Shown piece by piece: positions 13,872 to 46,012 of a DNA stretch of 64,000 nt. Where the stretch lies: contig NJBN01000001.1 of assembly GCA_005223185.1 (NCBI GenBank), forward strand, positions 441,365 to 505,364. The letters are read 5' to 3'. The notes under the pieces are model-generated. The model did not search any database. It was given only the letters and a program-made list of their open reading frames with translations, and was not told the DNA's origin. Both the position numbers and the translations under genes were made by a program. This DNA is from a candidate division LCP-89 bacterium B3_LCP. Lineage in GTDB: Bacteria > Electryoneota > B3-LCP. Each line of letters begins with the position of its first letter. Positions within the stretch are counted from its first letter, which is position 1.

Positions 13872-13914
13872 ACTTATCTAATGTAATTTGAAGTTGCGAA
13901 TTTAGAATATAGCT

Positions 13915-15516: not shown

Positions 15517-15654
15517 AGTGAGTTTACAGGTAAACAATCCATCTTGTGATTTCTTAATGCGATTCTCATAATGGACTAACAAATCATCAGTAGCTTATCT
15601 TACGATGAAATAACTAAAAAGAAAAACTATGAACCAAACAGAACATGAAGGAGG

Positions 15655-29856: not shown

Positions 29857-29885
29857 TTGACTTACCTGTTTAAATTGTTTATATT
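29857..29885 (+). promoter_or_regulatory. Sigma-70-like promoter TTGACT-N17-TATATT
   Basis: ttgact 29857-29862, 17-nt spacer, tatatt 29880-29885. A partial copy of the upstream module (aatcacttSgg…aaaactatc.cttgact) is also present at 29291-29330. Confidence 0.5.
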
Positions 29886-29924: not shown

Positions 29925-31754
29925 GTGACTGAATCCTCAAGAAATCGAATAAAACGTTTGTATAAATACATATACATCCTCATATCATTGCTGATATGCA
30001 TACTATTCCTATTCCAGAAAGATACCCAGGCAGAAGCAGCACGGATATACATGGACGGTAATTTCAGCGACTGGGAATCAGTAGAACCACTGCATGTTGA
30101 TCCTGTCGGTGATCAATTAGTTGACAGCCTGGATTTCGGTACTCTCTGGGTGGCTAATGATGAACGATACCTTTTCCTATGCCTGGAACTGGGAACTGAT
30201 ATACTTCTGCAGGAAGAACACGATTTCGATCTCTATCTGGATACGGACAACGACCCATCTACCGGGCAGCCAATCAACGGCATTGGAGCTGATTTCGACT
30301 GGAATTTCAATGATGGAGACGGTCACTTTCGCGTAGGTCCTATTCCCTATCCCGTTGACCATGAAGACTTAAGCTTTGTCACTGCACCCACTGTTTCATC
30401 CGATATCTACGAGATTGTAATCGATCGGTACGCAACTCCTGTGGGTCAGTATGAACTGTTCACCAGCGATACCATATCCATTCTCTTTCATGATAGCGGC
30501 GCCGGGCAGGATTATCTTCCCGATGCGGGAACGACATTACAGTATGTATTCGATGATTCTCCTTTGCCTCCATTTCCGGTATCATCGATTCAAAAGCAGG
30601 ATCCGTCGCATATCCGCGTTCTGTCCTACAACGTACATCTGGATGATTTCTTCGATCCTTACCTTGAAGATGAATACACGCGCATTCTTAATGCTATCGA
30701 ACCGGATGTAATCGCTTTCCAGGAAATCTACGATCACAATGTATTTGAAACAGTTGACCGGGTGACTGCGATGCTGGGTGGGGCATGGTACGGCACCAAG
30801 ATCAACCCGGACATAATCCTGGTCAGCCGATATACATTTGCAGAAACCATTAACATCTACGATGATGGCAACGGAGCTTTCCTCCTCAACCTGCAGCCGG
30901 ATTACGACTGTCAGATGCTGGTTATAAACGCTCACCTGCCCGCTGGACAAGCCAATACAAACAGGCAGAATGAAGTTGACGCCATTATGGCCTTCATCCG
31001 AGATGCCAAAGAACCCGGTGGAGAATTAGAATTGGAAGAGAACACCCCAATTCTCATTACCGGAGATATGAATTTCGTGGGTTACGCGCAACAACTGGTA
31101 ACCATGGTTACCGGGCAGATCTACTTCACGGGCCCGTTCGGCCCTCCCTTCGATCCCGATTGGGATGGAACCGATTTTACCGATCTGACCCCACGCCATA
31201 CAGATACGCCCTTCTATTTCACCTGGTATAACGATTGGAGCTACTATACCCCTGGCCGCTTCGATTTTATGATATACAGCGATTCGGTCCTGGAAGCCTG
31301 GAATAACTTCGTCCTGTTCACTCCGGGAATGTCACCCGATTCCTTAGCCGCCAATGGTCTGCAGGCTGATGACGTTTTAGATGCTTCAGATCACCTCCCC
31401 GTCGTCTGCGATTTCGTGCCTAATCCGGAAATGGGTGTATCTGGCAAGGATGACAGCCACAAACCAGCTGAATACGCTCTGTTACAGAACTTCCCCAACC
31501 CCTTCAACCCCACAACAGTTATCAGTTTTTCTATGCCAGTTTCGAGTTGGGTGAAACTGGATGTGTTCGATATAAACGGACGCAATGTAGGGGCGGGTTT
31601 GTCCCGCAGGGACGCCGAAGGCGAAACCCGCCCTTATACCCCCGGCACCCACCAAATCACCTTCGATGGATCTGGTCTTCCCTCTGGTATCTACTTCTAC
31701 CGTCTGACGGCGGATGATTTCACAGCGATAGGTAAGATGGTGCTGATCAAGTAA
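29925..31754 (+). CDS. Secreted endonuclease/exonuclease/phosphatase (EEP)-family protein with T9SS C-terminal domain
   Basis: Start moved to GTG 29925 (GGAG 5 nt upstream; the TTG at 29886 sits at the predicted transcription start). Signal peptide. EEP motif set: LSYNV, DVIAFQEI, INAHL, TGDMNF, YSD, SDHLPV. C-terminal Por_Secre_tail. Paralog of the C-terminal half of the 33227 gene. Confidence 0.7.
   Translation: MTESSRNRIKRLYKYIYILISLLICILFLFQKDTQAEAARIYMDGNFSDWESVEPLHVDPVGDQLVDSLDFGTLWVANDERYLFLCLELGTDILLQEEHDFDLYLDTDNDPSTGQPINGIGADFDWNFNDGDGHFRVGPIPYPVDHEDLSFVTAPTVSSDIYEIVIDRYATPVGQYELFTSDTISILFHDSGAGQDYLPDAGTTLQYVFDDSPLPPFPVSSIQKQDPSHIRVLSYNVHLDDFFDPYLEDEYTRILNAIEPDVIAFQEIYDHNVFETVDRVTAMLGGAWYGTKINPDIILVSRYTFAETINIYDDGNGAFLLNLQPDYDCQMLVINAHLPAGQANTNRQNEVDAIMAFIRDAKEPGGELELEENTPILITGDMNFVGYAQQLVTMVTGQIYFTGPFGPPFDPDWDGTDFTDLTPRHTDTPFYFTWYNDWSYYTPGRFDFMIYSDSVLEAWNNFVLFTPGMSPDSLAANGLQADDVLDASDHLPVVCDFVPNPEMGVSGKDDSHKPAEYALLQNFPNPFNPTTVISFSMPVSSWVKLDVFDINGRNVGAGLSRRDAEGETRPYTPGTHQITFDGSGLPSGIYFYRLTADDFTAIGKMVLIK
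31587..31638 (+). repeat. Palindromic element embedded in frame in the T9SS C-terminal domain coding sequence
   Basis: gtaggggcgggttt-gtcccgcagggacgccgaaggcg-aaacccgccc: inverted termini plus an inner gtccc…gggac hairpin. Encodes VGAGLSRRDAEGETRPY, which replaces the shorter canonical loop (ATxVDGFRNA). Confidence 0.7.
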
Positions 31755-31821
31755 TTAAATAATATGTGGACGTTAAACTTCCTATTGTATTCCCTGAAAA
31801 AGATTTCACCCTGATAATTAC

Positions 31822-31850
31822 TTGATAAATGAAGTGTGATTGAGTATATT
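31822..31850 (+). promoter_or_regulatory. Sigma-70-like promoter TTGATA-N17-TATATT
   Basis: ttgata 31822-31827, 17-nt spacer, tatatt 31845-31850. The ORF-track start at 31836 lies inside this promoter. Confidence 0.45.
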
Positions 31851-31889
31851 CTGGGAAAGAAAGTAGTACCTTCCTGTTTTGAGGTTCTT

Positions 31890-33049
31890 ATGAAAGCTAT
31901 CTTGCTTAGTCTTCTTCTTTTCACATTAACATTAGCCGCTCCCGCCCAACCACCTATCCTCTGGTTCCAAACCTTCGGTGGATCCAATTATGATTACGGT
32001 AAAAGTGTCCAACAGACAGGCGACGGTGGGTATATCATTGGAGGATATACCGAATCCTATGGTGCAGGTTCAAAAGACGTCTATTTAGTCAAAACCCACG
32101 CTTTTGGTATAGAGCAGTGGAGTCAAACCTACGGTGGAAGCTCCGATGATGGTGGCTGGAGTGTTCAGCAGACGAATGACGGAGGATATGTCATAGCGGG
32201 CGAGACCAATTCTTTTGGTGCTGGTGGTAGTGATGTATATTTAATCAAGACAGACGCTTCTGGGATAGAACAATGGAATCAGACCTACGGTGGAAGCGAT
32301 TATGAAGAGGGCTTCAGTGTACAGCAAACCTACGACGGCGGTTATATTGTTACTGGATATACCCTATCATACGGTGTTGATTATGAAGATGTATATTTAG
32401 TCAAGACCAACGCTTCAGGCATACAACAATGGAATCAGACCTACGGTACAACCATATCTGATTATGGTAGAAACGTACAGCAGACCTCCGACGGTGGTTA
32501 TATCATAGCGGGATGGACCTTATCTTATGATAGTGATGTCTATCTAATTAAAACATCTCCCTCTGGTAATTATCAATGGAGTAAGACTTTCGGTGGGGAA
32601 GCGCGTCGGATTGGGGAAACAGTGTTCAGCAGACTTCTGACGGCGGGTATATCGTTGCGGGGTCGACCACTTCCTACGGCGCTGGAGAAACTGACGTTTG
32701 CCTGATCCGCCTGGATGCTGAGGGGACACCTGTAAAAGATCCAGGCTTCATACAGGATATCCCCAACGATTTCGCTTTGTACGAAGCCCACCCCAACCCC
32801 TTCAACCCCACCACAACCATCAACTTCGAGTTACCAGTCGCCAGTTTAGTGGAACTGGATGTGTTCGACATCTCCGGTTCCCGCGTAGGGGTCGCCTGCC
32901 CCTTCGGGGGTCTTGCGCCGACCCGTATCTACACCCCCGGCACCCACCAGATCACCTTCGATGGATCTGGTCTTCCCTCTGGTATCTACATCTACCGCTT
33001 ACAAGCTGGCGAGTTTTCAGCGATAGGTAAGATGGTGCTACTCAAGTAA
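31890..33049 (+). pseudogene. T9SS cargo gene with tandem ~48-aa beta-propeller-like repeats, interrupted by a -1 frameshift near 32598
   Basis: Start ATG 31890 (gagg 5 nt upstream; signal peptide MKAILLSLLLFTLTLAAPAQ). Repeats of YGGSxxDxGxSVQQTxDGGYIIxGxTxSYGAGxxDVYLIKT. Frame 0 derails after TFGG at about 32598 and stops at 32705. Frame 2 continues the repeat (SASDWGNSVQQTSDGGYIVAGSTTSYGAGETDVCLIRL…) into the C-terminal domain ORF 32777-33049. The slip is in a gggg/aa run; a sequencing error is not excluded. Confidence 0.55.
32885..32926 (+). repeat. Palindromic element embedded in frame in the T9SS C-terminal domain coding sequence
   Basis: gtaggggtcgcctgcccc-ttcg-ggggtcttgcgccgaccc: outer gggtcg/cgaccc stem with an inner cccc-UUCG-gggg hairpin; encodes GVACPFGGLAPTR. 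A 60-nt stretch around it is identical to 36391-36450 in the next gene. Confidence 0.65.
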
Positions 33050-33074
33050 TGAACCAGCTTAAAAGTGATTGTAG

Positions 33075-33102
33075 GGGCGGACCTCTGTGTCCGCCCTTTT
33101 TT
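33075..33102 (+). terminator. Rho-independent terminator
   Basis: gggcggac-ctctgt-gtccgccc followed by tttttt. Confidence 0.65.
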
Positions 33103-33163
33103 CTTTCGGAGTCCCTTCTTATGATTACCCCACTGTTTCATTTCCCACAAAAATTTTCTTCGC

Positions 33164-33192
33164 TTGACTAAGCGATTTATTTTTTGTATATT
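33164..33192 (+). promoter_or_regulatory. Sigma-70-like promoter TTGACT-N17-TATATT
   Basis: ttgact 33164-33169, 17-nt spacer, tatatt 33187-33192. The ORF-track start at 33164 lies inside the -35 box. Confidence 0.5.
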
Positions 33193-33226
33193 ATGTCCAC
33201 ACACTTCCATAAGAAAGGATGAGAAA

Positions 33227-36200
33227 ATGAACCGTCTGATGTTATCTATTTACATACTACTGTTCGGGTTTATTTCTGCCGTTCGTGCAGACACCACATT
33301 TGTTGCTTCAGGTCCGGTATCCGGCGCCTGGACTTCAGCCGGCAACCCTTACTTCGTCTATGAAGGTGATATCGTGGTTCCGGACGGCAGAAGCCTGACC
33401 GTTCTGCCCGGTGTTGAGGTGCTGTTCACCGGCAACTACAAACTGACTGTAGAAGGATTGCTGAACGCCGAAGGCACTGAAGCAGATTCGATAACTTTCA
33501 CCAGGGCTTATTCAACCGAAGAATCCAAGTGGCGCGGTTTCCGCTTCGATGCTGCAGATGATGGCTGTACTCTAAAATACTGCCGCATAGAATACGCCAA
33601 AGGCACCGGCCCTTATCCCGATGTGCGCGGTGGAGGGGTGTGGATCGAAAACTGTTCGGTGCTGATAAGGAATTGTACCATAGCGCATAATTACACGCAT
33701 AACGAAAACTACAACGGTTCTGGTGGTGGTATCTTCTTAAATCAGAGTGATCAGAGTATCATCGAATACAACTATATAACCCAAAACCAGGCAGACAATG
33801 GCGGCGGTATATGTGTCGGGCAGAATTGCTACACCATAATCCGGCATAATACTTTCGATAACAACCAAACCTACTCATCCGGGGGAGGTATATACGTCTC
33901 AGCCAACGGAGAATCCGTCATCAATGATAATATATTCGTGGACAATCACTCCAGCGGCATTTACGGCGGAGGAGCTATAAACCTGTGGAGCGCTACCTGG
34001 ATATACGGAACGTTTTCCTATGTGTACAACAACCTGATAATGAACAATACCGCCTCTTCAGCCGGCGGAGGCATCTATCATCGCTACGAATCTTCGATAG
34101 TTTATAATAACACTCTGGTTGGCAATCAGGCCAATCAGGGAGGTGGAATTTACGTTTTGACTTTTTCCGATCTGCCGCCTACTATTTATAATTCCATAAT
34201 TTGGGGAAACAATGCCCCGGTGGGCAGCCAGATTTATCTCGATCCTCAATCGGGGAGCGTCGCCAATATCAGCTATTGCGACGTACATGCCGGATGGCCA
34301 GGTGTGGGAAATATCAATTCCGATCCGGAATTCGTGTCAGGGTCCGGTGGCGATTACTACTTGAGTCAGATCGCTGCAGGACAGCCTGTGCAGAGTCCCT
34401 GTGTGGATGCCAGCGATCCCATTTCAACCATGATAACCGGCACTACCAGAACGGACGGCGTCCAGGATGAGGGTATCGTGGATATGGGGTATCATTATGC
34501 CATCGAAACGGTTGTCAGTATGAACGTGGTTCTGACGCCTTTGAACCCGCCCATCCAGATTCCGGCTATAGGGGGAACTTTCGAATTTGACGTCTTAATC
34601 GAAAATCTGGAGTCATCGCCCGTTCTTTGCGATATCTGGACAGAAGCTATCTTACCCAGTGGACAACCATATCCGCTGATCTTACGGGAAGACGTGAATA
34701 TCCCTGCAGGGGGCAGTATTGAGAGGACGTTATCTCAGAACGTACCCGAGAGCGCCCCAGCAGGATCGTACAGCTACCATGCCTATGTCGGTGATCATCC
34801 GAACATGGTTTACGCAGAGGACAGCTTTACTTTCGAGAAGTTGACCGGTTTAGAAGCCACACGGATATACATGGACGGCGATTTCAGCGATTGGGAATCA
34901 GTTGAGCCACTGCACATCGACCCGGTTGGTGATCAATTGGCCGACAGCCTGGATTTTGGCACCCTCTGGGTGACTAACGATGAACGCTACCTGTTCCTCT
35001 GTCTGGAAGTGGGAGCGGAGATGATGATACAGGTGGAGCATGACTTCGATCTCTACCTGGATACGGATAACGACATCTCCACCGGGCTGTCCATCAACGG
35101 AATAGGTGCTGATCTGGATTATAATTTCAACGATGGAACCGGCAACTTTCTCGCGGGAGGAACTACCTATACTATCTACCATGAAGATCTGGGACTTGCC
35201 ACCGCACCCACCTACTCATCAAATATCTACGAGATCGTAATCGACAGGGAAGCCTATCCAGCGGGTCAATATGAACTGTTCACCAGCGATACCATATCCG
35301 TTCTCTTCCACGATAGCGGTCCCGGGCAGGATTACCTTCCCGATGAGGGGACTACTATCCAGTATGTGTTCGATGATTCCCCCTTACCAACACTACCGGT
35401 TTTATCGCTTCAGAAGCAAGATCCATCGCATATCCGCATCATGTCCTACAATGTCTGGACGGATAACCTCTTTGAACCCGACCTTGAAGATGAGTACACG
35501 CGCATTCTGAATGCCATCGAACCGGACATAATCGCTTTCCAGGAAATCTACAATCACAATGCTTCCCAGACAGTTGACCAGGTGACTTCAATGTTAGGAG
35601 GACAGTGGTACGGCTACAAGATCAATCCCGACATAGTCCTGGTCAGCCGATATGAAATAGCGGAGACATTCAACGTCAACAATGACGGCAACGGAGCATT
35701 CCTCCTCGATCTGCAGCCTGACTACGACTGCCAGATGCTGGTTATAAATGCCCATTTGCCAGCAGGACAATCCAATACTGGCAGGCAGCATGAAGTTGAC
35801 GCCATAATGGAATTCATCCGGGAAGCCAGAGAACCCGGCGGTGAACTGGAGCTGGAAGTGAACACCCCTATCCTGATCACAGGTGATATGAATTTCGTGG
35901 GTTATTATCAGCAGTTGTTTACCATGGTTACAGGTCAGATCTACTACACAGGTACGTATGGACCGCCGTTTGAACCTGACTGGGACGGCACCAATCTTAC
36001 CGATCTGATTCCACGTCATACTGATACTCCCTTCTATTTCACCTGGTATAATGAATCGAGTTACTACTGCCCCGGCCGCCTGGATTTCATGATATACAGC
36101 GATTCCGTGCTGGAAGCCTGGAACAATTTTGTCCTCTTCACGCCGGGAATGTCACCCGATTCCTTAGCTGCCAACGGCCTGCAATGGGATGACGTTGTAA

Positions 36201-36571
36201 ATGCTTCTGACCATTTACCCGTAGTAGGTGATTTTGTACCCAATCCGGGCACAGTCTTGGCGGGAAATTATAACAGCCAGCAACCAGCCCGGTTCGCACT
36301 ATTACAGAACTATCCCAATCCGTTTAATGCATCAACAACAATCAGTTTCCAGTTGCCAGTTTCGAGTCTGGTAGAACTGGATGTCTTTGACATCTCCGGT
36401 TCCCGCGTAGGGGTCGCCTGCCCCTTCGGGGGTCTTGCGCCGACCCGTCAATATTCACCCGGCACCCATCAAATCACTTTCGATGCATCGGGATTAGCAT
36501 CTGGTATATACCTTTACCGACTGCAGGCTGGCGAGTTTTCCGCGATAGGGAAGATGGTGCTGGTGAAGTAA
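33227..36571 (+). CDS. Secreted multidomain protein: parallel beta-helix region + EEP (endonuclease/exonuclease/phosphatase) domain + T9SS C-terminal domain
   Basis: Start ATG 33227 (aagga RBS; signal peptide MNRLMLSIYILLFGFISAVRA). Beta-helix-like repeats (GGGVWIENCSVL, GGGIFLNQSD, GGGICVGQNC, GGGIYVSANG). C-terminal half is paralogous to the 29925 gene with the full EEP motif set (MSYNV, DIIAFQEI, INAHL, TGDMNF, SDHLPV). C-terminal Por_Secre_tail. Confidence 0.7.
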   Translation: MNRLMLSIYILLFGFISAVRADTTFVASGPVSGAWTSAGNPYFVYEGDIVVPDGRSLTVLPGVEVLFTGNYKLTVEGLLNAEGTEADSITFTRAYSTEESKWRGFRFDAADDGCTLKYCRIEYAKGTGPYPDVRGGGVWIENCSVLIRNCTIAHNYTHNENYNGSGGGIFLNQSDQSIIEYNYITQNQADNGGGICVGQNCYTIIRHNTFDNNQTYSSGGGIYVSANGESVINDNIFVDNHSSGIYGGGAINLWSATWIYGTFSYVYNNLIMNNTASSAGGGIYHRYESSIVYNNTLVGNQANQGGGIYVLTFSDLPPTIYNSIIWGNNAPVGSQIYLDPQSGSVANISYCDVHAGWPGVGNINSDPEFVSGSGGDYYLSQIAAGQPVQSPCVDASDPISTMITGTTRTDGVQDEGIVDMGYHYAIETVVSMNVVLTPLNPPIQIPAIGGTFEFDVLIENLESSPVLCDIWTEAILPSGQPYPLILREDVNIPAGGSIERTLSQNVPESAPAGSYSYHAYVGDHPNMVYAEDSFTFEKLTGLEATRIYMDGDFSDWESVEPLHIDPVGDQLADSLDFGTLWVTNDERYLFLCLEVGAEMMIQVEHDFDLYLDTDNDISTGLSINGIGADLDYNFNDGTGNFLAGGTTYTIYHEDLGLATAPTYSSNIYEIVIDREAYPAGQYELFTSDTISVLFHDSGPGQDYLPDEGTTIQYVFDDSPLPTLPVLSLQKQDPSHIRIMSYNVWTDNLFEPDLEDEYTRILNAIEPDIIAFQEIYNHNASQTVDQVTSMLGGQWYGYKINPDIVLVSRYEIAETFNVNNDGNGAFLLDLQPDYDCQMLVINAHLPAGQSNTGRQHEVDAIMEFIREAREPGGELELEVNTPILITGDMNFVGYYQQLFTMVTGQIYYTGTYGPPFEPDWDGTNLTDLIPRHTDTPFYFTWYNESSYYCPGRLDFMIYSDSVLEAWNNFVLFTPGMSPDSLAANGLQWDDVVNASDHLPVVGDFVPNPGTVLAGNYNSQQPARFALLQNYPNPFNASTTISFQLPVSSLVELDVFDISGSRVGVACPFGGLAPTRQYSPGTHQITFDASGLASGIYLYRLQAGEFSAIGKMVLVK
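36407..36446 (+). repeat. Palindromic element embedded in frame in the T9SS C-terminal domain coding sequence
   Basis: Same element as 32885-32926 (gtaggggtcgcctgccccttcgggggtcttgcgccgaccc); encodes GVACPFGGLAPTR. Confidence 0.65.
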
Positions 36572-37734: not shown

Positions 37735-37784
37735 CGCACTGTGTGCGTCATCCTGAACGTAGTGAAGGATCTCATTTCAATTGT

Positions 37785-37814
37785 AGGGGCAGACCTCTGT
37801 GTCTGCCCTTTTTG
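37785..37814 (+). terminator. Rho-independent terminator
   Basis: gggcagac-ctctgt-gtctgccc followed by ttttt. Confidence 0.6.
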
Positions 37815-38750: not shown

Positions 38751-38915
38751 GTTTCAAATCCCCCTTGGTCCCCCTTTGGAAAAGGGGGAAACTGCGTAAT
38801 TCCCTGCATACCCACTAACACCCCCCTTTCCCAAAGGGGGGAGTCCCAACTTGTTGGGACGGGGGGATTTCGGGACGGGGGGATTTCGGGACGGGGGGAT
38901 TTGGGCGGGGGGATT
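38751..38915. repeat. G/C-tract-rich ~165-bp direct repeat flanking the 3' side of the DUF559 gene
   Basis: ggtttcaaatcccccttggtccccc…ccctgcatacccactaa…cccccctttcccaaaggggggag…, then 3 tandem units of gggacggggggatttc. About 85-90% identical to 39275-39425. Confidence 0.8.
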
Positions 38916-39261
38916 ACAGATGATTCCAAATCACCTGCAGCACCCCCTCAATATTATTCATAACCTCCAGGTTGCTGAATCGCAACACTTGAAATCCTAA
39001 TTCATTCAGATATGAATCTCGTTTACGGTCTTTGATCTTACCCTGAGGGGTAAAATGTTGTTCACCATCTAATTCAATAATTATTTTCGCTTTAGGACAA
39101 TAAAAATCAACAATGTAATTTCCAATTACTCTTTGACGATAAAATTGGGTACGTTTTAGTTGTTTGCGTCGTATTCTGTTCCAGAGCCGTTTCTCTGCTT
39201 CAGTGGCATTATTTCTTAACTCTCTGGCAAGAAGTTTCAATTTGGGATTATAATAGATCAT
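38914..39261 (-). CDS. DUF559-family endonuclease-domain protein (Vsr-like PD-(D/E)xK fold)
   Basis: 115 aa; strong match to the remembered DUF559 pattern (YIVDFYCPKAKIIIELDGEQH…FQVLRFSNLEVMNNIEGVLQVI). Confidence 0.8.
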   Translation of the reverse strand: MIYYNPKLKLLARELRNNATEAEKRLWNRIRRKQLKRTQFYRQRVIGNYIVDFYCPKAKIIIELDGEQHFTPQGKIKDRKRDSYLNELGFQVLRFSNLEVMNNIEGVLQVIWNHL

Positions 39262-39274
39262 GCTTCATTGTTGA

Positions 39275-39425
39275 GGTTTCAAATCCCCCTTGATCCCCCT
39301 TTTCCAAAGGGGGAAACTGCATCTTTCCCTGCATACCCACTAATTCCCCCCTTTCCCAAAGGGGGGAGCCCCGACTTGTCGGGGCGGGGGGATTGGACGG
39401 GGGGATTTTAGACAGGGGGATTAAA
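39275..39425. repeat. G/C-tract-rich ~150-bp direct repeat flanking the 5' side of the DUF559 gene
   Basis: ggtttcaaatcccccttgatccccc…ccctgcatacccactaa…cccccctttcccaaaggggggag…gggcggggggatt…; same orientation as 38751-38915. Confidence 0.8.
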
Positions 39426-39509
39426 ACAGCAACCTAACCCACCCCAGAGGGGTGGGGCACCGGTGCGAGGGCACTCCTTCAGAGCTTCCACCTTCGGCGA
39501 AGGCTTTCG

Positions 39510-40412
39510 TCATTGAGTTGATGTTGGTACATCGGTTCTTTCGAGATCGTCCACATCTGCTTCAATTGTTCTTAACCGGTCATCACGCTGAATTCTCCAC
39601 ATAGCGATGACTAATTCTGAAATCAATATCGTCATGAACATCAATACATAAGCTACCAGACTCCAGTTATCAGATCCGCTCTTACTGGATATACATGCAA
39701 AAACAAATGCAGTAGATGAGAAAAAAAGGATTATTACATGACGCAGCTTATGGGACCGCTTGAGAAAGTAATATTCTAGCTCATCTATGGCACTATTATA
39801 CAGCAGAAGGCGTCGATCGTTTTGGTGTAATAGTAATTCATCATATAGCTGCTGTCTACTCTTCTCTATGGCTGCTAGAATTTCCTTATTAAGATATTGG
39901 TTTGTTAGCAGGCTGACAACGCCATAAATGGAAAAGAATATAGAGTAGAAAAACACATCCCTTGAAGCGAAGAATAGGACACTCAGGAGGACACCCAGCG
40001 AAAGTATCATTGCGGTTTCTCGCAAATCGGATGGCGGCTTGTATCTCCTAGGATCAAGCCACCGCCATAAGATAATTAATTCATGCCTTGTTGCCCACAC
40101 CCATAACCAAACAAGGACTCCTGTTAAGGCAAATAGTGCTACATAACATATAACTAGAATATCCGGCCAGGATTCCTTGATACGGTCGATCTCAGATAGC
40201 AACATTCCTGCTCCGAGCAGAGATGTGATAATACCTATGCCCCAACGCCGCGCAACGATCAGCCCTTCACTCTTTTCCTTAAGATTTGGTTTGTAGTTCA
40301 CGATGGTTCTCAGTTTATATTGATTTATATTCTTTCCTGTCAGGTTTTGATCGCCGAAGGCGGGTGTGACCTGATGGCTTTTATCATGCTGTAACGTCTG
40401 GTCGCGGTTCAA
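39510..40412 (-). CDS. Polytopic membrane protein of unknown function (third gene of the three-gene operon)
   Basis: 300 aa with about 6 hydrophobic helices (e.g. ILVICYVALFALTGVLVWLWVWA, LVAYVLMFMTILISELVIAMW); no recognisable motif. Confidence 0.5.
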   Translation of the reverse strand: MNRDQTLQHDKSHQVTPAFGDQNLTGKNINQYKLRTIVNYKPNLKEKSEGLIVARRWGIGIITSLLGAGMLLSEIDRIKESWPDILVICYVALFALTGVLVWLWVWATRHELIILWRWLDPRRYKPPSDLRETAMILSLGVLLSVLFFASRDVFFYSIFFSIYGVVSLLTNQYLNKEILAAIEKSRQQLYDELLLHQNDRRLLLYNSAIDELEYYFLKRSHKLRHVIILFFSSTAFVFACISSKSGSDNWSLVAYVLMFMTILISELVIAMWRIQRDDRLRTIEADVDDLERTDVPTSTQ

Positions 40413-40462
40413 GCAATACAGAGCCTTGAACTTACGAATAAAAAAATGTAAATATCAGGATT

Positions 40463-41050
40463 TTACTCTTCTGCATTCTTTTTATTGGTACACCGCCCAG
40501 CGTAACATTCCCATCCCCTTTCATTCATCGCTCTTTGGTCACTAATTCTCCTCTCAATAAATTCATTTAAACGACTATGGACATACCAGCTATCTAAATA
40601 GATCTGTGCAAAACAATCTGGATCCTCGGATGGATCACGCCCTTTGTATTTGATACTGCCGGTTTTTTTATGAGCAAATTCATTTCTGAGATTGTTTATG
40701 ACTGGAATATATTCATCTAATTCGGTTGCAACAAATGATTTAAAGCAAGGACGTAGAAGTTTATGCACTTGACTAAATGACATTCGTTTGACAATTCTAT
40801 CTAGTTCCTTTAGGCAACTTTCATGAAGTTCGTCATACCCTTCCATCCATAAAATTAGATCGGAAAGGTGCTCATATAGAATTTCTTTCATCATTGATTC
40901 AATTGATGCGTGAATGTCAAGTACAATAGAACGAACAATGTGATTCATATCTGTTCTATCAGAAGTCCAGGATTTCACTAATGCAAGTACTTCTTCTTTC
41001 GTTGAACAGCCTAATATGTTGATATATTTTCTATGATCGGTCTTAGTCAT
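40463..41050 (-). CDS. Hypothetical protein with a HEPN-like Rx4H motif (second gene of the three-gene operon)
   Basis: 195 aa, helical-looking; motif INNLRNEFAHKK fits the HEPN Rx4-6H signature. Motif-level inference only. Confidence 0.45.
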   Translation of the reverse strand: MTKTDHRKYINILGCSTKEEVLALVKSWTSDRTDMNHIVRSIVLDIHASIESMMKEILYEHLSDLILWMEGYDELHESCLKELDRIVKRMSFSQVHKLLRPCFKSFVATELDEYIPVINNLRNEFAHKKTGSIKYKGRDPSEDPDCFAQIYLDSWYVHSRLNEFIERRISDQRAMNERGWECYAGRCTNKKNAEE

Positions 41051-41149
41051 AGTTTATTAGACTCCCTCCGATACAACATCCATTTCTTCGTCGAGTTTGT
41101 ATGACATAGTTTTAGGTGCTTAACGAACGCTGGTATAAAACGGGTACTT

Positions 41150-41893
41150 TTAAGGACTTGTGGTGCCCGTAGAGGTAACCGTTGTTGTTATACCGTTGGG
41201 ATCGGTCGGATAAGGATAAGTTTGTGGATCATTACCAAGTATTTTTTCAATTTCTTCTTTGAAATGATTTCGTATATTCGCAGTGCTAGAGGGTGGATCA
41301 CAATCCAATATGCTGAACATACTGTGTGACCGTGCGTGTAATGGTTTTCCTGAATGTAGTGTATCTAGTCTTTTGAGAGCTGCATCAATAGAATTCACAG
41401 CTATTAGTTTTGAGTACCAATTGCCTAGTTTAACAGCGTTGTCACTGTTTTCTCTAAAGTAGATTTCTATTGCAGCAGCAATCTCGGATACAAAGTCAGG
41501 CAGATTTAAAAAAACACGATGTCCAGCACCATTTACTTGTTTTCTCAAATGCATAGGTGATTGATCGTGGTGTAAGATAAAACGAAGCTTTACTTGTTGT
41601 GTCGCATTCGACTGTCCATACGTATGAATCAATGAATTTCGTATTCGCCATAGATCATCATCCAGACTACCATACTTTGCATTTAGTTTCTTCATATATT
41701 CAGAAATAAATTTCTTAAAATCATTTCCTGTGTTTCTGTCTTTTGTAGGGTCCAGCCCTAATCCCATATAGTCTATACAGCAAAATGAAAGAATATATGC
41801 GCCCATTAGAGATCTTCCTTCAATTGCCCTTATGATATCAGCCACTGCCGTATCAAAGAAATTAAATTTTAATATGTTATAATCATATGCCAT
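41150..41893 (-). CDS. Hypothetical protein with a HEPN-like Rx4H motif (first gene of the three-gene operon)
   Basis: 247 aa; agggag RBS; motif DLWRIRNSLIHTYG fits Rx4H; C-terminal low-complexity Thr/Pro tail. Motif-level inference only. Confidence 0.45.
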   Translation of the reverse strand: MAYDYNILKFNFFDTAVADIIRAIEGRSLMGAYILSFCCIDYMGLGLDPTKDRNTGNDFKKFISEYMKKLNAKYGSLDDDLWRIRNSLIHTYGQSNATQQVKLRFILHHDQSPMHLRKQVNGAGHRVFLNLPDFVSEIAAAIEIYFRENSDNAVKLGNWYSKLIAVNSIDAALKRLDTLHSGKPLHARSHSMFSILDCDPPSSTANIRNHFKEEIEKILGNDPQTYPYPTDPNGITTTVTSTGTTSP

Positions 41894-41960
41894 TGGAATT
41901 ACTCCCTGATTTAATTTTGGTTTATGCCTGCTTTACGTGATTCTCAATCACTATCCCTAA

Positions 41961-41989
41961 AATATACCCCAATTCATAACACAAGTCAA
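41961..41989 (-). promoter_or_regulatory. Sigma-70-like promoter TTGACT-N17-TATATT for the three-gene operon
   Basis: Minus-strand reading cttgact-tgtgttatgaattgggg-tatatt; about 60 nt upstream of ATG 41893. Confidence 0.5.
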
Positions 41990-42019
41990 GAAGAATATTT
42001 ACCAGATGTGTTTCATTCA

Positions 42020-42048
42020 ATAAAAAAGGCACCCCAGCGGGGCGCCTT
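42020..42048 (-). terminator. Rho-independent terminator (minus strand)
   Basis: Minus-strand hairpin ggcgccccgctggggtgcc followed by ttttttatt; about 450 nt downstream of the P5C dehydrogenase stop and just upstream of the operon promoter. Confidence 0.6.
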
Positions 42049-42156
42049 CTGTCCTCTGTTCTCAATTCCCCCACTTTACCCTTGCATTCCAGGCAATTTT
42101 GTTGTATATTATATATATACTCCAATTATCAAATTTCCATCCTCAATCCTCTCACC

Positions 42157-42191
42157 AACTGCTAACTGCTAACTGCTAACTGCTAACTGCC
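42157..42191. repeat. Tandem heptamer (aactgct/ctaactg) x5
   Basis: Five perfect contiguous 7-bp units in the non-coding region downstream of the P5C dehydrogenase gene. Confidence 0.9.
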
Positions 42192-42487
42192 AAAAACCAT
42201 CTTCTTGACAACGACACATCTGTCACAGGCGACAAATATGACCGACAACCTAAGACGCATGAAAAACAATCACATAACCCCCAAAAACGACAGATATGGC
42301 GCAATTTCAGATTTTGTGCGTGGGAGTCAAAATTTCTGTCGCTTTTGTGCTGAAAGGCAAAGTCACCTTCGTCAAATCTGTCGCCAATCTGAAATGTAAA
42401 ATAATCGGCTTCGCGCCCATAAAATAATCCCTCTGACTCCAGGAGCCGGGGGATTATTCTGTCTTCTGTCTTCTTTATTCTTTTTCC

Positions 42488-44035
42488 CTAAAACTGCTCA
42501 CACACCGCCTTACCCTGAGTGAAGAGCGCTAAATAATCTCTGCCGCCAGCTTTGGAATCGGTGCCGGACATGTTGAAACCACCGAAGGGTTGAACGCCCA
42601 CCAGAGCGCCCGTACACTTGCGGTTCAGGTAGAGGTTGCCTGCATGCAGTTCCCTGCGCCCGACTTCCAAATTGCCGCGGTTACCGCTGTATAAAGCGCC
42701 GGTCAATCCGAATTCAGTGCCGTTTGCGATGGCTATGATATGCTCGAAATCCTTCGCTTTGATGAAAGCCAGAACCGGCCCGAAGATCTCCTCCTGAGCG
42801 ATGCGCGCTTCCTCATCTACGTCCTTGATGATGGTTGGCTGAATGAAATACCCGCCGTCGGGACCCTTGCCTCCACCCAGAACCAGTTCGCCTTCCTTCT
42901 TACCGATTTCGATGTATTCCAAAATCTTGTTGTAGGCAGCTTCATCCACCACGCCGCCCATGAAGTTGTCCTGATCCTTCACTTCACCGATGGTGATGGG
43001 CTTAGCCTTTTCAACCACTTTCGCCACCACTTCATCATAAACCGATTCGTGAACGATGGCACGGGAACAGGCGGAACACTTCTGCCCCTGAAATCCAAAA
43101 GCAGCAGCGACGATCCCCTGTGCCGCCGCATCCAGATCGGCAGATTCATCGACCGCGATGAAGTCCTTACCGCCCATCTCCAGAACGGTGCGCTTGATCC
43201 AGATCTGACCTTCGGATTTCTTGGCAGCACGTTCATGGATGCGCAAACCTACTTCCATAGAGCCGGTAAAGGCGATGAAACGGGTGCGGGGATGATCGAC
43301 TATGGTATCACCGATTTTACTGCCGGGTCCGGGGAGGAAATTCAGCACGCCGTCAGGCAGACCGGCTTCCTTCATGATCAGATAAAACTGGTATCCGATC
43401 GCCGGAGCGGTTGACGCCGGTTTCAGGATTACGGTGTTGCCTGCAACTATGGCAGCCGAAGTCATCCCGCAGAGGATAGCTAAGGGGAAGTTCCAGGGAG
43501 GGATTACGGCGCCCACACCTAAAGGTATGTAATACAGTTCGTTCTCTTCGCCGGGGTAGGGGATAACCGGCTGAGGCTGACCGTAGCGCATCATCTCTCT
43601 GCCGTAGAATTCCAGAAAGTCGATAGCTTCGGCTACGTCGGCGTCCGCTTCTAACCAGTTTTTGCCGACTTCATATATCATCCAGGCGGCTAATTCGCGG
43701 CGGCGGCGCTTCATTATGGCTGCGGCTTTGATCAAATAGCGGGCGCGATCATCGGGAGCAACGCGGCTCCAGAGCTTGAAAGTCTCATCCGCAGTAGCTA
43801 TGGCTTTTTCAGCTTGTTCCTTGCTTCCTTTGGAACAGTTGGCTACGACTTCATCGTACTTGGAGCAGTTCAAAGATACGATCTTATCATCGGTGACGAT
43901 CTCCTTTCCGCCGATGACTAAAGGTATGGTAATTCCTAACTGCTTCTGGACTTTATCCAGCGCAGCTATCATTTCCTGCCGGTTTTCGCTTTTGGAAAAA
44001 TCGGTAAAGGGGGTTGGTACAAATTCGGGGAGCAT
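42488..44035 (-). CDS. L-glutamate gamma-semialdehyde (1-pyrroline-5-carboxylate) dehydrogenase
   Basis: 515 aa aldehyde dehydrogenase with catalytic-Cys region GFQGQKCSACSRAIV and Glu motif LEMGGKD; size and sequence match RocA/PruA-type P5CDH. Confidence 0.85.
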   Translation of the reverse strand: MLPEFVPTPFTDFSKSENRQEMIAALDKVQKQLGITIPLVIGGKEIVTDDKIVSLNCSKYDEVVANCSKGSKEQAEKAIATADETFKLWSRVAPDDRARYLIKAAAIMKRRRRELAAWMIYEVGKNWLEADADVAEAIDFLEFYGREMMRYGQPQPVIPYPGEENELYYIPLGVGAVIPPWNFPLAILCGMTSAAIVAGNTVILKPASTAPAIGYQFYLIMKEAGLPDGVLNFLPGPGSKIGDTIVDHPRTRFIAFTGSMEVGLRIHERAAKKSEGQIWIKRTVLEMGGKDFIAVDESADLDAAAQGIVAAAFGFQGQKCSACSRAIVHESVYDEVVAKVVEKAKPITIGEVKDQDNFMGGVVDEAAYNKILEYIEIGKKEGELVLGGGKGPDGGYFIQPTIIKDVDEEARIAQEEIFGPVLAFIKAKDFEHIIAIANGTEFGLTGALYSGNRGNLEVGRRELHAGNLYLNRKCTGALVGVQPFGGFNMSGTDSKAGGRDYLALFTQGKAVCEQF

Positions 44036-44073
44036 TGTGCCTCCGTTAGGTTATTTTAGTTATATTTATAAGT

Positions 44074-44125
44074 CTGAAAATATAAGCAAAAACCCTTGAA
44101 AATTCAAGGGATTTTAGGGAAAAAG
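44074..44125. repeat. ~50-bp direct repeat, copy 1, with central inverted repeat cccttgaa-aa-ttcaaggg
   Basis: tctgaaaatataagcaaaaacccttgaaaattcaagggattttagggaaaaag; about 85% identical to 45516-45568. The pair brackets the DUF3800-like gene. Confidence 0.75.
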
Positions 44126-44343
44126 AATGTAAAATGTAGAATGGTGAATTTTAAATTAGGAATTTGTAATGGGAGGGAGAATCAGGGACATCTCCAAAGG
44201 TGCAGGCAAGCCGCTGAGGGAGCTTACGCCCTGTCCCGAGCACACACGTTTTTGTTGTAAGCAATATGATTTTGGGATAGATTAAATATTTATTTCATCA
44301 ATAAATCTTCTCAAATAGTCATATTTCTGATTACTAAGAATAT

Positions 44344-45447: not shown

Positions 45448-45515
45448 TTCTTCTTTAAATCCTATTCTTTGTATGGCACAACAATTCGGATCATATTTTA
45501 TATATCTCTAGACGT

Positions 45516-45568
45516 TTTAAAATATAAGCAAAAACCCCTGCAATTTCAAGGGGTTTTGGGGGTAAAGC
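45516..45568. repeat. ~50-bp direct repeat, copy 2
   Basis: ttttaaaatataagcaaaaacccctgcaatttcaaggggttttgggggtaaag; same orientation as 44074-44125. Confidence 0.75.
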
Positions 45569-45645
45569 GTGTTTATAAAGATTATTATACAATCGATCTT
45601 TAGCATTTCATGTTCCCAAAAAGGGAAAATAGTTCTTGACTTCTA

Positions 45646-45674
45646 TTTGGGAACTTCTTATCTTATATATAGTA
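45646..45674 (+). promoter_or_regulatory. Sigma-70-like promoter TTGACT-N17-TATCTT upstream of higB
   Basis: ttgact 45646-45651, 17-nt spacer, tatctt 45669-45674, about 40 nt upstream of ATG 45714. Confidence 0.4.
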
Positions 45675-45713
45675 TATAAGGTAGAATATTTATGAATCCA
45701 GCTATAGCGCACA

Positions 45714-45998: not shown

Positions 45999-46012
45999 CT
46001 AGAGAGTCAGAT

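What the first reader, a model, noticed from the sequence alone, without database searches (positions are those of the whole stretch)
29925..36571. Paralogous T9SS-secreted EEP (DNase I-like) proteins created by partial gene duplication
The 29925-31754 protein is a paralog of the C-terminal half of the 33227-36571 protein. Both have the complete EEP catalytic motif set, and the shared N-terminal module (RIYMDGxFSDWESVEPLHxDPVGDQL…) is highly similar at nucleotide level. Together with the cargo genes at 4153-18549 this points to an arsenal of secreted nucleases or phosphoesterases. Some EEP members are phosphatases or sphingomyelinases, so the substrate is open.
Basis: partly seen in the sequence, partly recalled or inferred. 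Interest (0 to 1): 0.5.

Follow-up and report, generated by a model that had tools for sequence, protein, structure and literature searches.

The report
Paralogous secreted phosphoesterases, one a gene fusion
Two neighbouring genes of an uncultured sediment bacterium (candidate division LCP-89) encode secreted enzymes of the DNase I/exonuclease III-like (EEP) phosphoesterase superfamily; the shorter has the standard form of a widespread but unstudied family, the longer is a fusion of a copy of it to an unrelated beta-helix surface protein, and the substrate (probably nucleic acid) is still unproven.

Summary
ORF 29925-31754 (609 aa) and the C-terminal 582 aa of ORF 33227-36571 (1114 aa) are 76% identical. 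Both pass the Pfam EEP and T9SS sorting-domain thresholds and keep every catalytic residue.

Three refinements:
- **Family.** The shared unit is a sandwich module with no Pfam family (CBM9/DOMON-like fold) packed on an EEP domain. This ~600-aa form is widespread: at least 818 homologues, in FCB phyla, Planctomycetota and others.
- **Origin.** The long gene is a chimera. Its residues 1-540 are 73% identical to a separate ~650-aa beta-helix cargo family. The EEP copy starts exactly where the short protein's signal peptide ends. The duplication is old (dS about 1.1) and both copies are under purifying selection (dN/dS 0.13).
- **"DNase I-like" is only a fold name.** The nearest solved structures are PDE12, CNOT6L, nocturnin, TDP2 and ExoIII. 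No nuclease subfamily model is matched.

A nucleic-acid substrate is favoured by fusions in relatives (ComEC-type MBL nuclease domain, LTD) and by a ddb-like DNA-utilisation cluster upstream, but a glycan phosphoesterase role is not excluded.

In passing: GTAG-headed REP-like hairpins lie in frame at one fixed site in four of the eleven sorting-domain coding regions.

Verdict: an ordinary finding with some interesting detail.

The parts
29925..31754 (+). Short EEP cargo gene (609 aa; NCBI CEE37_01875). It has the canonical architecture of the family: signal peptide, N-module, EEP domain, T9SS sorting domain.
29857..29885 (+). Promoter-like site (TTGACT-17-TATATT) upstream of the short gene. 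This is a consensus match only.
29925..30038 (+). Signal peptide of the short protein (basic n-region, hydrophobic core, AEA|A cleavage-type motif). Read from the sequence, not predicted with a dedicated tool.
30042..30599 (+). N-module of the short protein. It is a beta sandwich with no Pfam family and a CBM9/CBM74/DOMON-like fold. W50, D106 and D108 are invariant in the family.
30600..31424 (+). EEP catalytic domain of the short protein. Catalytic codons: N236 30630, E267 30723, H337 30933, D381 31065, N383 31071, D447 31263, D489 31389, H490 31392.
31491..31754 (+). T9SS type A C-terminal sorting domain of the short protein, including the stop codon.
31587..31633 (+). GTAG-headed REP-like palindrome in frame inside the short gene's sorting domain. 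It forms a three-way junction and encodes VGAGLSRRDAEGETRP.
30032..31754 (+). Duplicated DNA segment, copy 1. It runs from the codons at the signal-peptide cleavage site to the stop codon.
34852..36571 (+). Duplicated DNA segment, copy 2 (78-80% nucleotide identity in the two enzyme domains; dS 1.1; dN/dS 0.13).
33227..36571 (+). Long chimeric cargo gene (1114 aa; NCBI CEE37_01890).
33164..33192 (+). Promoter-like site (TTGACT-17-TATATT) upstream of the long gene. This is a consensus match only.
33227..34846 (+). Part derived from the beta-helix cargo: signal peptide (to 33289), parallel beta-helix (about 33290-34501) and Ig-like domain (about 34502-34846). It is 73% identical to the stand-alone 655-aa protein P0122 up to 'FEKLTG'.
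34847..34858 (+). Fusion junction (aa 541-544, LEAT). Similarity to the beta-helix family ends here and similarity to the short EEP gene begins.
34853..35419 (+). N-module (CBM9/DOMON-like) of the long protein.
35420..36244 (+). EEP catalytic domain of the long protein. Catalytic codons: N742 35450, E773 35543, H843 35753, D887 35885, N889 35891, D953 36083, D995 36209, H996 36212.
36311..36571 (+). T9SS type A sorting domain of the long protein. It carries an in-frame REP-like hairpin at 36407-36446.
31836..33049 (+). Gene between the paralogues: a repeat (delta-60/DUF5122-like) cargo split by a frameshift near 32600. Its sorting domain is a mosaic: 60 nt are identical to the long gene's (32867-32926 = 36389-36448) and 39 nt are identical to the short gene's (32951-32989 = 31656-31694).
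33073..33098 (+). Intrinsic-terminator-like GTAG-headed hairpin followed by a T run, after the middle gene.

Best explanation
Both genes encode cargo of the type IX secretion system: a Sec signal peptide at the start and a type A sorting domain at the end. Their working part is a rigid two-domain unit, a CBM9/DOMON-like beta sandwich packed against a catalytically intact, metal-dependent EEP phosphoesterase domain.

The 609-aa gene has the ancestral, widespread stand-alone architecture. A lineage-specific duplication produced a second copy. Its mature coding part, starting exactly after the signal-peptide cleavage site, was joined in frame to the 3' end of the beta-helix+Ig part of a neighbouring ~650-aa cargo gene. 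That fusion displaced the beta-helix gene's own sorting domain and gave the 1114-aa chimera. The simplest route (inferred) is one deletion spanning the 3' end of the upstream gene, the spacer and the 5' end of the copy. Both copies have since been kept under purifying selection.

Functionally (inferred), they are extracellular or cell-surface Mg2+-dependent phosphodiesterases or phosphatases. The most likely substrate is extracellular nucleic acid or nucleotide-type phosphoesters, scavenged together with the ddb-like DNA-utilisation genes upstream. The sandwich module, and in the chimera the beta-helix, would serve to bind or position substrate or surface.

Shown: paralogy, domain content, conserved catalytic residues, chimeric origin, purifying selection.
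Inferred: secretion, metal dependence, substrate.
For: **Paralogy and selection**
- 76% identity over 582 aa.
- dS 1.12, dN 0.15, dN/dS 0.13.
- The two copies are 80% identical to each other but only 65% identical to the nearest outside homologue.

**Family**
- 818 homologues at E <= 1e-3, mostly 580-630 aa with the same layout.
- 80 loci in genomes of FCB phyla, Planctomycetota, Myxococcales, Gammaproteobacteria and Anaerolineales, with variable C-terminal tags.
- N-module residues are invariant in all 90 aligned members.

**Catalysis**
- Pfam EEP scores are above the gathering score.
- N/E/H/D/N/D/D/H are invariant.
- E267 and D381/N383 align to ExoIII E34 and D151/N153.

**Structure**
- AF2 model with pLDDT 95 and pTM 0.93 for the two-domain unit.

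**Chimera**
- Long aa 1-540 are 73% identical to the 655-aa beta-helix+Ig+sorting-domain protein P0122, and about 20 further ~650-aa relatives exist.
- The Ig-like piece recurs before the sorting domains of two other cargo genes in the window.

**Secretion**
- TIGR04183 scores 29.5 and 31.2 bits against a cut-off of 23.
- A PorV/PorQ-family gene lies at 11300-12400.

**Nucleic-acid lead**
- A relative fuses the unit to a ComEC-type MBL domain that is 32% identical to the window's own MBL cargo. The ComEC MBL domain is a DNA nuclease (PMC8579336).
- Another relative fuses the unit to an LTD.
- The upstream TonB receptor plus DUF5689 cargo resembles ddbCD of the Bacteroides DNA-utilisation locus and the Riemerella transformation genes.
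Against: - No characterised nuclease subfamily model is matched.
- Sequence similarity to any solved EEP is insignificant: the best is TDP2 at E 0.058 with the family profile.
- The accessory domains (a CBM9-like sandwich and a NosD/CASH-type beta-helix) are typical of carbohydrate-active proteins, not of nucleases.
- The enzyme unit is extremely acidic: net charge about -66 and pI 4.05, with a family median of -39. That is awkward for binding a polyanion, although all cargo proteins of this organism are acidic.
- The family has no conserved gene neighbours: the best neighbour family occurs in 7 of 72 loci and is generic.
- The ddb-like cluster is 11 kb away, behind housekeeping genes.
- The fusions to MBL and LTD are single cases.
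- Secretion, activity and expression are untested.
- The absence of other fused proteins is weakly supported, because the two homology searches each failed to return the known paralogue.
Confidence: 0.6

Rival explanations
1. The enzymes act on phosphorylated or phosphodiester-linked glycans (phosphomannan-type, teichoic-acid-like or capsular polymers), not on nucleic acids. The CBM9-like module, and in the chimera the CASH-type beta-helix, would bind the carbohydrate while the EEP domain removes or cleaves the phosphate.
For: - The long protein carries a NosD/Beta_helix domain.
- The strongly acidic surface fits a neutral substrate better than DNA.
Against: - There is no sequence match to CBM9 or any other CBM family, even at E <= 10.
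- DOMON-type relatives of this fold bind haem rather than sugar.
- No glycoside hydrolases or SusC/D-type genes flank family members.
- The fusions seen in relatives are to ComEC-type MBL and LTD domains, which go with nucleases.
- The top structural neighbours act on nucleotides or nucleic acids.
- Teichoic-acid-like polymers are polyanions too, so the charge argument does not separate them from DNA.
Confidence: 0.25
2. The enzymes are lipid-directed EEP members, of the sphingomyelinase, phospholipase C or inositol-phosphate phosphatase type, attacking membranes of other cells.
Against: - No sphingomyelinase or inositol phosphatase appears in the Foldseek top 50.
- I noticed no hydrophobic membrane-insertion hairpin in the sequence (not formally tested).
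- The protein is extremely acidic, which disfavours binding to anionic membranes.
Confidence: 0.07
3. The direction of evolution is the reverse. The 1114-aa multi-domain gene is ancestral, and the 609-aa gene arose by duplication of its 3' half and acquisition of a new signal peptide.
For: The DNA similarity alone is symmetrical. A few codons upstream of the junction show faint similarity (F-Q/E-K ... EA).
Against: - The ~600-aa architecture is the norm in hundreds of homologues across many phyla.
- The ~650-aa beta-helix+Ig+sorting-domain architecture is the norm for the N-terminal half.
- No other protein with both halves was seen.
- The sorting domain of the long protein is closer to that of the short one (63% aa) than to that of the beta-helix orthologue (51%).
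Confidence: 0.05

Closest known systems
EEP superfamily enzymes of the CCR4/nocturnin/PDE12/ANGEL2 and TDP2 branches, and ExoIII (PDB 4ZKF, 3NGN, 6BT1, 6RW0, 4GYZ, 1AKO)
   Different: Sequence identity is only 13-20%. No sequence model of these families is matched. The known enzymes are intracellular and eukaryotic (ExoIII is bacterial and cytoplasmic). Here the domain is secreted, carries a family-specific aromatic-rich insert (FGPxFxPDWDG...W) and is fused to a CBM9-like module.
ExeM/NucH/Xds-type extracellular nucleases (LTD + OB-like + EEP)
   Same: They are secreted bacterial EEP enzymes with an N-terminal beta-sandwich accessory domain. One relative of the present family also carries an LTD (P0054). 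Pieces similar to the ExeM/NucH N-terminal region occur in two upstream cargo genes.
   Different: NCBIfam's ExeM_NucH_DNase model does not match either EEP protein. The accessory domain is CBM9/DOMON-like rather than LTD/OB. Export is through a T9SS sorting domain.
BT3783 (PDB 3MPR/4C1R), the EEP-fold sugar phosphatase of the Bacteroides thetaiotaomicron yeast-mannan locus (PMC4978465)
   Different: It is a single-domain protein encoded inside a polysaccharide utilisation locus. The present family has no such context, and it has an extra sandwich module and a T9SS tag.
ddbABCDEF DNA-utilisation loci of Bacteroidales and the related Riemerella natural-transformation genes (bioRxiv 10.1101/2025.03.18.642099; PMC8459023; PMC8851478)
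   Same: The window has a TonB-dependent receptor with a carboxypeptidase-regulatory-like domain, a DUF5689 protein and secreted nuclease-type domains clustered at 4-18.5 kb. EEP-superfamily genes are drawn in the BT3563 region.
   Different: The two EEP genes lie 11 kb outside that cluster. Proteins here are anchored by T9SS sorting domains instead of lipoprotein signals. Homology of the receptor to DdbC was not tested, and no activity data exist.
CBM9 / CBM74 / DOMON beta-sandwich modules
   Different: No sequence-level match to any Pfam family. The ligand is unknown. The module is predicted to be rigidly packed on the catalytic domain (pTM 0.93) rather than tethered by a linker.
GTAG-tagged REP elements, including intragenic ones and Rickettsia palindromic elements (PMC3733652)
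   Same: The hairpins inside the sorting-domain coding regions have the GTAG head and a GC-rich palindrome. They are translated in frame, and related copies act as terminator-like hairpins after genes.
   Different: They sit at one fixed position of one protein domain in several different cargo genes and in several metagenomes. No RAYT gene is in the window.

Membership tests
EEP superfamily (Pfam PF03372 Exo_endo_phos) | Score at or above the Pfam gathering score (24.5 bits) | tested here: met
   30.6 bits (short) and 34.5 bits (long), covering profile positions 1-225.
EEP superfamily (Pfam PF03372 Exo_endo_phos) | Complete catalytic and metal-binding residue set (N, E, H, D-x-N, D, D-H) | tested here: met
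   N236, E267, H337, D381, N383, D447, D489 and H490 in the short protein, and the equivalents in the long one. They are invariant in 90 homologues. E267 and D381/N383 align with ExoIII E34 and D151/N153.
EEP superfamily (Pfam PF03372 Exo_endo_phos) | Four-layer alpha/beta sandwich fold | tested here: met
ExeM/NucH extracellular endonucleases (NCBIfam NF033681, NF033680) | Match to the family model at its cut-off (300 bits) | tested here: not met
   Neither EEP protein gives a hit at E <= 0.1.
Exodeoxyribonuclease III / Xth (TIGR00633, NF008733) | Match at the curated cut-off (99 and 280 bits) | tested here: not met
   18.3-20.4 bits only.
DNase I family proper | Closer to DNase I-type enzymes than to other EEP branches | tested here: not met
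Sphingomyelinase / inositol 5-phosphatase branches of EEP | Closest structural or sequence neighbours belong to these branches | tested here: inconclusive
T9SS type A cargo | C-terminal sorting domain above threshold (TIGR04183 cut-off 23 bits; PF18962 cut-off 27 bits) | tested here: met
   TIGR04183 scores 29.5 and 31.2 bits. PF18962 scores 31.3 and 36.5 bits. Both domains are at the extreme C-terminus.
T9SS type A cargo | N-terminal Sec signal peptide | tested here: inconclusive
   Both N-termini read as classical signal peptides: KRLYKYIYILISLLICILFLF...AEA|A and MNRLMLSIYILLFGFISAVRA|D. No dedicated predictor was available.
T9SS type A cargo | T9SS machinery encoded in the genome | tested here: met
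   A PorV/PorQ family protein lies at 11300-12400 (NF033709, 175.4 bits against a cut-off of 90). Eleven ORFs in the window bear a sorting domain. Only the window was available, so the core PorK/L/M/N/Sov genes were not seen.
T9SS type A cargo | Actual T9SS-dependent export | not testable with these tools
   This needs a secretome or a mutant, and the organism is uncultured.
CBM9 (Pfam PF06452) / DOMON | Sequence match to the family model | tested here: not met
   No CBM or DOMON family appears even at E <= 10 for either N-module.
CBM9 (Pfam PF06452) / DOMON | Same beta-sandwich fold | tested here: met
CBM9 (Pfam PF06452) / DOMON | Carbohydrate (or haem) binding | not testable with these tools
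   This needs binding assays.
Parallel beta-helix cargo family (~650 aa; PF13229/NosD + Ig + sorting domain) | The N-terminal half of the long protein belongs to this family | tested here: met
   PF13229 scores 59.7-63.8 bits. There is 73% identity over 562 aa to P0122 and 47-60% to about 20 others of 620-670 aa.
ddb-type DNA-utilisation locus | EEP genes encoded within a cluster holding a DdbC-like TonB receptor and a DUF5689 (DdbD-like) protein | tested here: not met
   The receptor (8587-11322) and the DUF5689 protein (15655-18549, 74.4 bits) exist. However, the EEP genes are 11 kb downstream, separated by YmdB, RNase Y, PheST and ThrRS on the other strand.
GTAG-tagged REP elements (for the in-frame hairpins) | GTAG head followed by a GC-rich palindrome; repeated in the genome | tested here: met
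   GTAGGGGCGG occurs 9 times in the window against 2.5 expected. Hairpins are shown.
GTAG-tagged REP elements (for the in-frame hairpins) | Associated RAYT (Y1 transposase) gene | tested here: inconclusive
   None was found among the ORFs of the window scanned with Pfam. The rest of the genome was not available.

The most novel reading that the evidence does not exclude
The GTAG-headed REP-like palindromes lie in frame at one fixed site of the T9SS sorting-domain coding sequence. They occur in four of the eleven sorting domains in this window, in the closest EEP homologues, and in three further metagenome contigs.

On this reading they are not passive passengers. They would be recombination or gene-conversion hot spots (or functional mRNA structures) that drive cassette-like exchange of sorting domains and fusion of neighbouring cargo genes. 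The mosaic sorting domain of the middle gene and the beta-helix-EEP chimera would be products of that process.
Probability: 0.1. Interest if true: 0.6.

Novelty: new variant of a known kind. Interest (0 to 1): 0.35.

Why it matters
The CBM9-like + EEP unit defines a large secreted enzyme family with no studied member (at least 818 homologues). It occurs across FCB phyla, Planctomycetota and others from sediments and waters, and its N-terminal module has no Pfam family.

If it is a nuclease, it adds a widespread player to extracellular DNA and phosphorus turnover in sediments. It would also extend the recently described DNA-utilisation loci of Bacteroidales beyond that order. If it is a glycan phosphoesterase, it would be a new enzyme class for phosphorylated polysaccharides.

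The chimera is a clean, datable example of how T9SS cargo genes are built by joining whole mature modules at the signal-peptide and sorting-domain boundaries.

None of this overturns current knowledge. It is a good target for enzymology rather than a surprise.

Tried and rejected
- **Gene-neighbourhood inference.** I called and clustered ORFs of 80 genome loci. No neighbour family occurs in more than 7 of 72 loci, and the top ones are generic (TPR histidine kinase, ABC ATPase). Contigs of P0005 and P0012 were equally uninformative.
- **Sequence search of the PDB.** The single protein gave only ExoIII (E 0.16). The family profile gave TDP2 (E 0.058) and nocturnin (E 0.25). Neither assigns a subfamily.
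- **NCBIfam.** No subfamily reached its cut-off.
- **Pfam on the isolated N-module and Ig-like piece at E <= 10.** Nothing meaningful was found.
- **AlphaFold-database fold search.** The library was not available.
- **Look-up of the short protein's contig.** It is not on record, so other parts of the genome could not be read.
- **Search for other fused beta-helix-EEP proteins.** None was seen. However, each homology search failed to return the known paralogue from the same contig, so this absence is weak. The four long family members from genomes have other extensions: MBL, MopE repeats, dockerin or unknown.
- **Rfam scan of the window at gathering thresholds.** No family matched, so the hairpins are not a described RNA.
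- **Metagenome pattern scan for sorting-domain-embedded hairpins.** There were only 3 hits, because the pattern was strict.
- **Net charge as a substrate discriminator.** I rejected it as decisive, because all cargo proteins of this organism are similarly acidic.
- **Mis-assembly as the origin of the chimera.** I considered it. The copies differ at about 21% of nucleotides and are in frame with intact domains, which argues against a collapsed or chimeric assembly. It cannot be excluded without reads.

Full report
**Source and observation.**
The window comes from a 636-kb contig of the metagenome-assembled genome 'candidate division LCP-89 bacterium B3_LCP'. The two ORFs are NCBI hypothetical proteins CEE37_01875 (609 aa, 29925-31754) and CEE37_01890 (1114 aa, 33227-36571).

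- BLASTP aligns short aa 28-609 with long aa 534-1114 at 76% identity with a single gap.
- At DNA level the similarity begins at 30032 / 34852, a few codons before 'RIYMDG', and ends at the stop codons. The flanks are unrelated.
- A codon-wise comparison gives dS 1.12, dN 0.15 and dN/dS 0.13.
- Nucleotide identity is 78% in the N-module, 80% in the EEP domain and 66% in the sorting domain.

The paralogy is therefore real and far beyond chance, but it is an old duplicate kept under purifying selection, not a recent near-identical copy. Profile searches of the six-frame translation find only these two copies in the window. The two are closer to each other (80%) than to any outside homologue (65% at best), so the duplication is lineage-specific.

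**Domain content.**
- Both proteins exceed the Pfam gathering scores for Exo_endo_phos and for the T9SS sorting domain Por_Secre_tail, and the cut-off of TIGR04183.
- Both begin with sequences that read as Sec signal peptides.
- A PorV/PorQ-family protein (175 bits against a cut-off of 90) is encoded at 11300-12400, and eleven ORFs of the window end in a sorting domain.
- Export by a type IX system is thus a sound inference, though untested.
- The long protein has in addition a parallel beta-helix (PF13229/NosD) and an Ig-like domain in its first 540 residues.

**The shared unit.**
About 185 residues between the signal peptide and the EEP domain match no Pfam family even at E <= 10. An AlphaFold2 model of aa 40-502, built on 90 homologues, is very confident (pLDDT 95.2). 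Its pTM of 0.93 implies a fixed arrangement of the two domains.

- *Foldseek.* It ranks PDE12, nocturnin, CNOT6L, TDP2, ANGEL2 and ExoIII first, with no sphingomyelinase or inositol phosphatase in the top 50.
- *Sequence models.* NCBIfam's ExeM/NucH model does not match, and xth reaches only 18-20 bits against a cut-off of 99. A family profile finds no solved EEP with a significant E-value.

'DNase I-like' is therefore correct only as the name of the fold. The domain belongs to an unclassified EEP clade.

Its catalytic machinery is intact. N236, E267, H337, D381, N383, D447, D489 and H490, and the corresponding long-protein residues, are invariant in all 90 aligned homologues. The alignment to ExoIII pairs E267 with E34 and D381/N383 with D151/N153.

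**The family.**
The short protein has at least 818 homologues at E <= 1e-3. Most are 580-630 aa with the same N-module + EEP + sorting-domain layout, and they are annotated only as 'EEP family' or 'T9SS sorting domain' proteins.

A scan of one genome per species returned 80 loci:
- Saprospiraceae, Balneolaceae, Salinibacter, Melioribacteraceae, Marinimicrobia, Calditrichaceae, WOR-3, Fermentibacteria, Eisenbacteria and Krumholzibacteria;
- also Planctomycetota, Myxococcales, Gammaproteobacteria, Anaerolineales and Sumerlaeota.

The N-module + EEP core is constant, while the C-terminal tag varies: a T9SS sorting domain, nothing, or dockerin-like repeats. Tandem paralogues also occur elsewhere, in L037 and L064. 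No gene family is a conserved neighbour.

**Origin of the long gene.**
A search with the long protein showed that its first half belongs to a separate, populous family of ~650-aa cargo proteins with the layout signal peptide, beta-helix, Ig-like domain, sorting domain.

- The best member, P0122 (655 aa), is 73% identical over residues 1-540. That similarity stops at 'FEKL(T)G', exactly where similarity to the short EEP protein starts ('ATRIYMDG'). In P0122 a short linker and the sorting domain follow instead.
- In the short protein the same point is the signal-peptide cleavage site (AEA|ARIYMDG).
- The sorting domain of the long protein is closer to that of the short protein (63%) than to that of P0122 (51%).
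- The Ig-like piece recurs just before the sorting domains of two other cargo genes in the window.

The long gene is thus a chimera of two complete cargo architectures. The whole mature part of a duplicated EEP gene replaced the sorting domain of the beta-helix gene. A single in-frame deletion between two adjacent genes would suffice; this route is my inference. I saw no second protein with this fusion. The two large homology searches each missed the known paralogue, however, so that absence is weak. Other long family members carry different additions.

**Function.**
What is shown is a conserved, catalytically complete EEP domain under purifying selection, with export signals. The substrate is inferred.

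*For nucleic acid:*
- The nearest structural relatives act on nucleotides or nucleic-acid ends.
- One family member (L006) is fused to a metallo-beta-lactamase domain that is 32% identical to the window's own MBL cargo at 13915-15516. That cargo is in turn a homologue of the ComEC nuclease domain: E 2.5e-13 to solved ComEC, and 70.8 bits to TIGR00361, which is below that model's cut-off of 190 (PMC8579336 for the nuclease activity).
- Another member (P0054) carries a lamin-tail domain, as extracellular nucleases often do (the association is from my own knowledge).
- The cluster at 4-18.5 kb combines three elements: a TonB-dependent receptor with a carboxypeptidase-regulatory-like domain; a DUF5689 + LTD cargo; and fragments resembling the N-terminal part of ExeM/NucH.
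- That signature matches the ddbABCDEF DNA-utilisation loci of Bacteroidales and the Riemerella transformation genes.

*Against, or for a glycan phosphoester:*
- The accessory domains (a CBM9-like sandwich and a NosD-type beta-helix) are those of carbohydrate-active proteins.
- The Bacteroides EEP-fold enzyme BT3783 is a sugar phosphatase and an almost equally good structural match.
- The enzyme unit is very acidic, with a net charge of about -66 and a family median of -39. All cargo proteins here are acidic, though.
- The ddb-like cluster is separated from the EEP genes by 11 kb of housekeeping genes on the other strand.

My estimates are roughly 0.45 for nucleic-acid or nucleotide-type substrates, 0.25 for glycan-linked phosphoesters, under 0.1 for lipids, and the rest unknown.

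**Transcription.**
Each of the four genes between 29.9 and 37.7 kb is preceded by a TTGACT/TTGACA-17-TATATT promoter-like site. Strong hairpin terminators follow the middle gene and the 286-aa gene. These are consensus matches only.

**Things noticed.**
- *A split gene between the paralogues.* The ORFs 31836-32705 and 32777-33049 are one repeat-protein cargo gene split by a frameshift near 32600.
- *A mosaic sorting domain.* The sorting domain of that gene shares 60 nt exactly with the long gene's sorting domain, and the next 39-nt tract exactly with the short gene's. This is against a background dS of about 1.1, and so indicates gene conversion.
- *In-frame hairpins in this window.* The sorting-domain coding regions of the short, middle and long genes, and of a fourth cargo gene at 53350-55290, contain a GC-rich palindrome. 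It is in frame, always after 'D-[IV]-x-G-[RS]-x-V', and starts GTAGGGG.
- *The same insert elsewhere.* It appears at the same place in the closest EEP homologues (P0002, P0003), in a CotH/LTD cargo, and in three JGI contigs.
- *What they resemble.* Their stems differ but stay complementary. Sister copies followed by a T run serve as terminator-like hairpins after genes.
- *How new this is.* They have the hallmarks of GTAG-tagged REP elements, and intragenic in-frame REP copies are already known (PMC3733652). The fixed position within one domain type is the unusual part.
- *Counts and negatives.* Four of the eleven sorting domains in the window carry the insert. No Rfam family matches, and no RAYT gene is in the window.

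**Verdict.**
It needs three corrections: the long gene is a chimera rather than a simple partial duplication, the event is old rather than recent, and there is no specific DNase I kinship. This is an unstudied variant of a known enzyme kind. It is of moderate interest mainly as an enzymology target and as a tidy example of modular cargo-gene evolution.

Noticed in passing
window 31587-31633, 32885-32924, 36407-36446, 53483-53535; L083, L084, L085-L087: GTAG-headed, GC-rich REP-like palindromes lie in frame at one fixed position of the T9SS sorting-domain coding sequence, after D-[IV]-x-G-[RS]-x-V. They are translated as VGAG..., VGVACPFGG..., VGARHA(S/V)PL... Four of the eleven sorting domains in the window carry one, as do close homologues and three metagenome contigs. 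The stems differ but remain complementary, and the two three-way-junction copies (31587 and 53483) have their inner hairpins in opposite order relative to the gene.
   Followed up: partly
window 32867-32926 = 36389-36448; 32951-32989 = 31656-31694: The sorting domain of the middle gene is a mosaic. One 60-nt tract is identical to the long EEP gene's sorting domain, and a following 39-nt tract is identical to the short EEP gene's, against a background dS of about 1.1. This points to gene conversion among neighbouring sorting-domain segments.
   Followed up: partly
window 31836-33049 (+): ORFs 31836-32705 and 32777-33049 are one cargo gene (SVQQTxDGGY repeats, delta-60/DUF5122-like, plus a sorting domain) broken by a frameshift near 32590-32620. 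It is either a pseudogene or a sequencing or assembly error.
   Followed up: partly
window 50958-53151 (+): A second split cargo gene. An S8 subtilase with a T9SS sorting domain is divided between overlapping ORFs 50958-51737 and 51550-53151.
   Followed up: no
window 4120-18549 (+): A ddb-like cluster holding these genes:
- a cargo with an ExeM/NucH N-terminal-like piece (4120-6723);
- a TonB-dependent receptor with a CarboxypepD_reg domain (8587-11322);
- a PorV/PorQ-family protein (11300-12400);
- an NHL protein;
- a ComEC-type MBL cargo (13915-15516);
- an LTD+DUF5689 cargo (15655-18549).

It resembles the DNA-utilisation loci of Bacteroidales, but with T9SS tags instead of lipoprotein signals.
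   Followed up: partly
L006 62-3622 (MAG Meg22_46_Bin_89); P0054: Two relatives of the EEP family are fused to other hydrolase-associated domains. One has N-module+EEP+ComEC-type MBL+sorting domain (1186 aa). The other has N-module+EEP+LTD+sorting domain (769 aa).
   Followed up: partly
window 33071-33098, 37783-37810, 55745-55774 (-), 1587-1619: Nearly identical GTAGGGGCRGACCTMTGTGTCYGCCC hairpins followed by a T run sit just downstream of genes, as terminator-like REP copies. The motif GTAGGGGCGG occurs 9 times in the window against 2.5 expected.
   Followed up: partly
window 38914-47542: A low-GC stretch (GC 0.35-0.38 at 40-46 kb) with defence or mobile-type genes: a DUF559 endonuclease-like protein, HEPN RiboL-PSP, DUF3800, and an HTH+M78 peptidase-like protein. 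It is probably an acquired island.
   Followed up: no
(database behaviour): Each of the two large protein searches failed to list the other paralogue from the same contig, despite 76% identity over about 580 aa. Negative results from that tool should be read with care.
   Followed up: no
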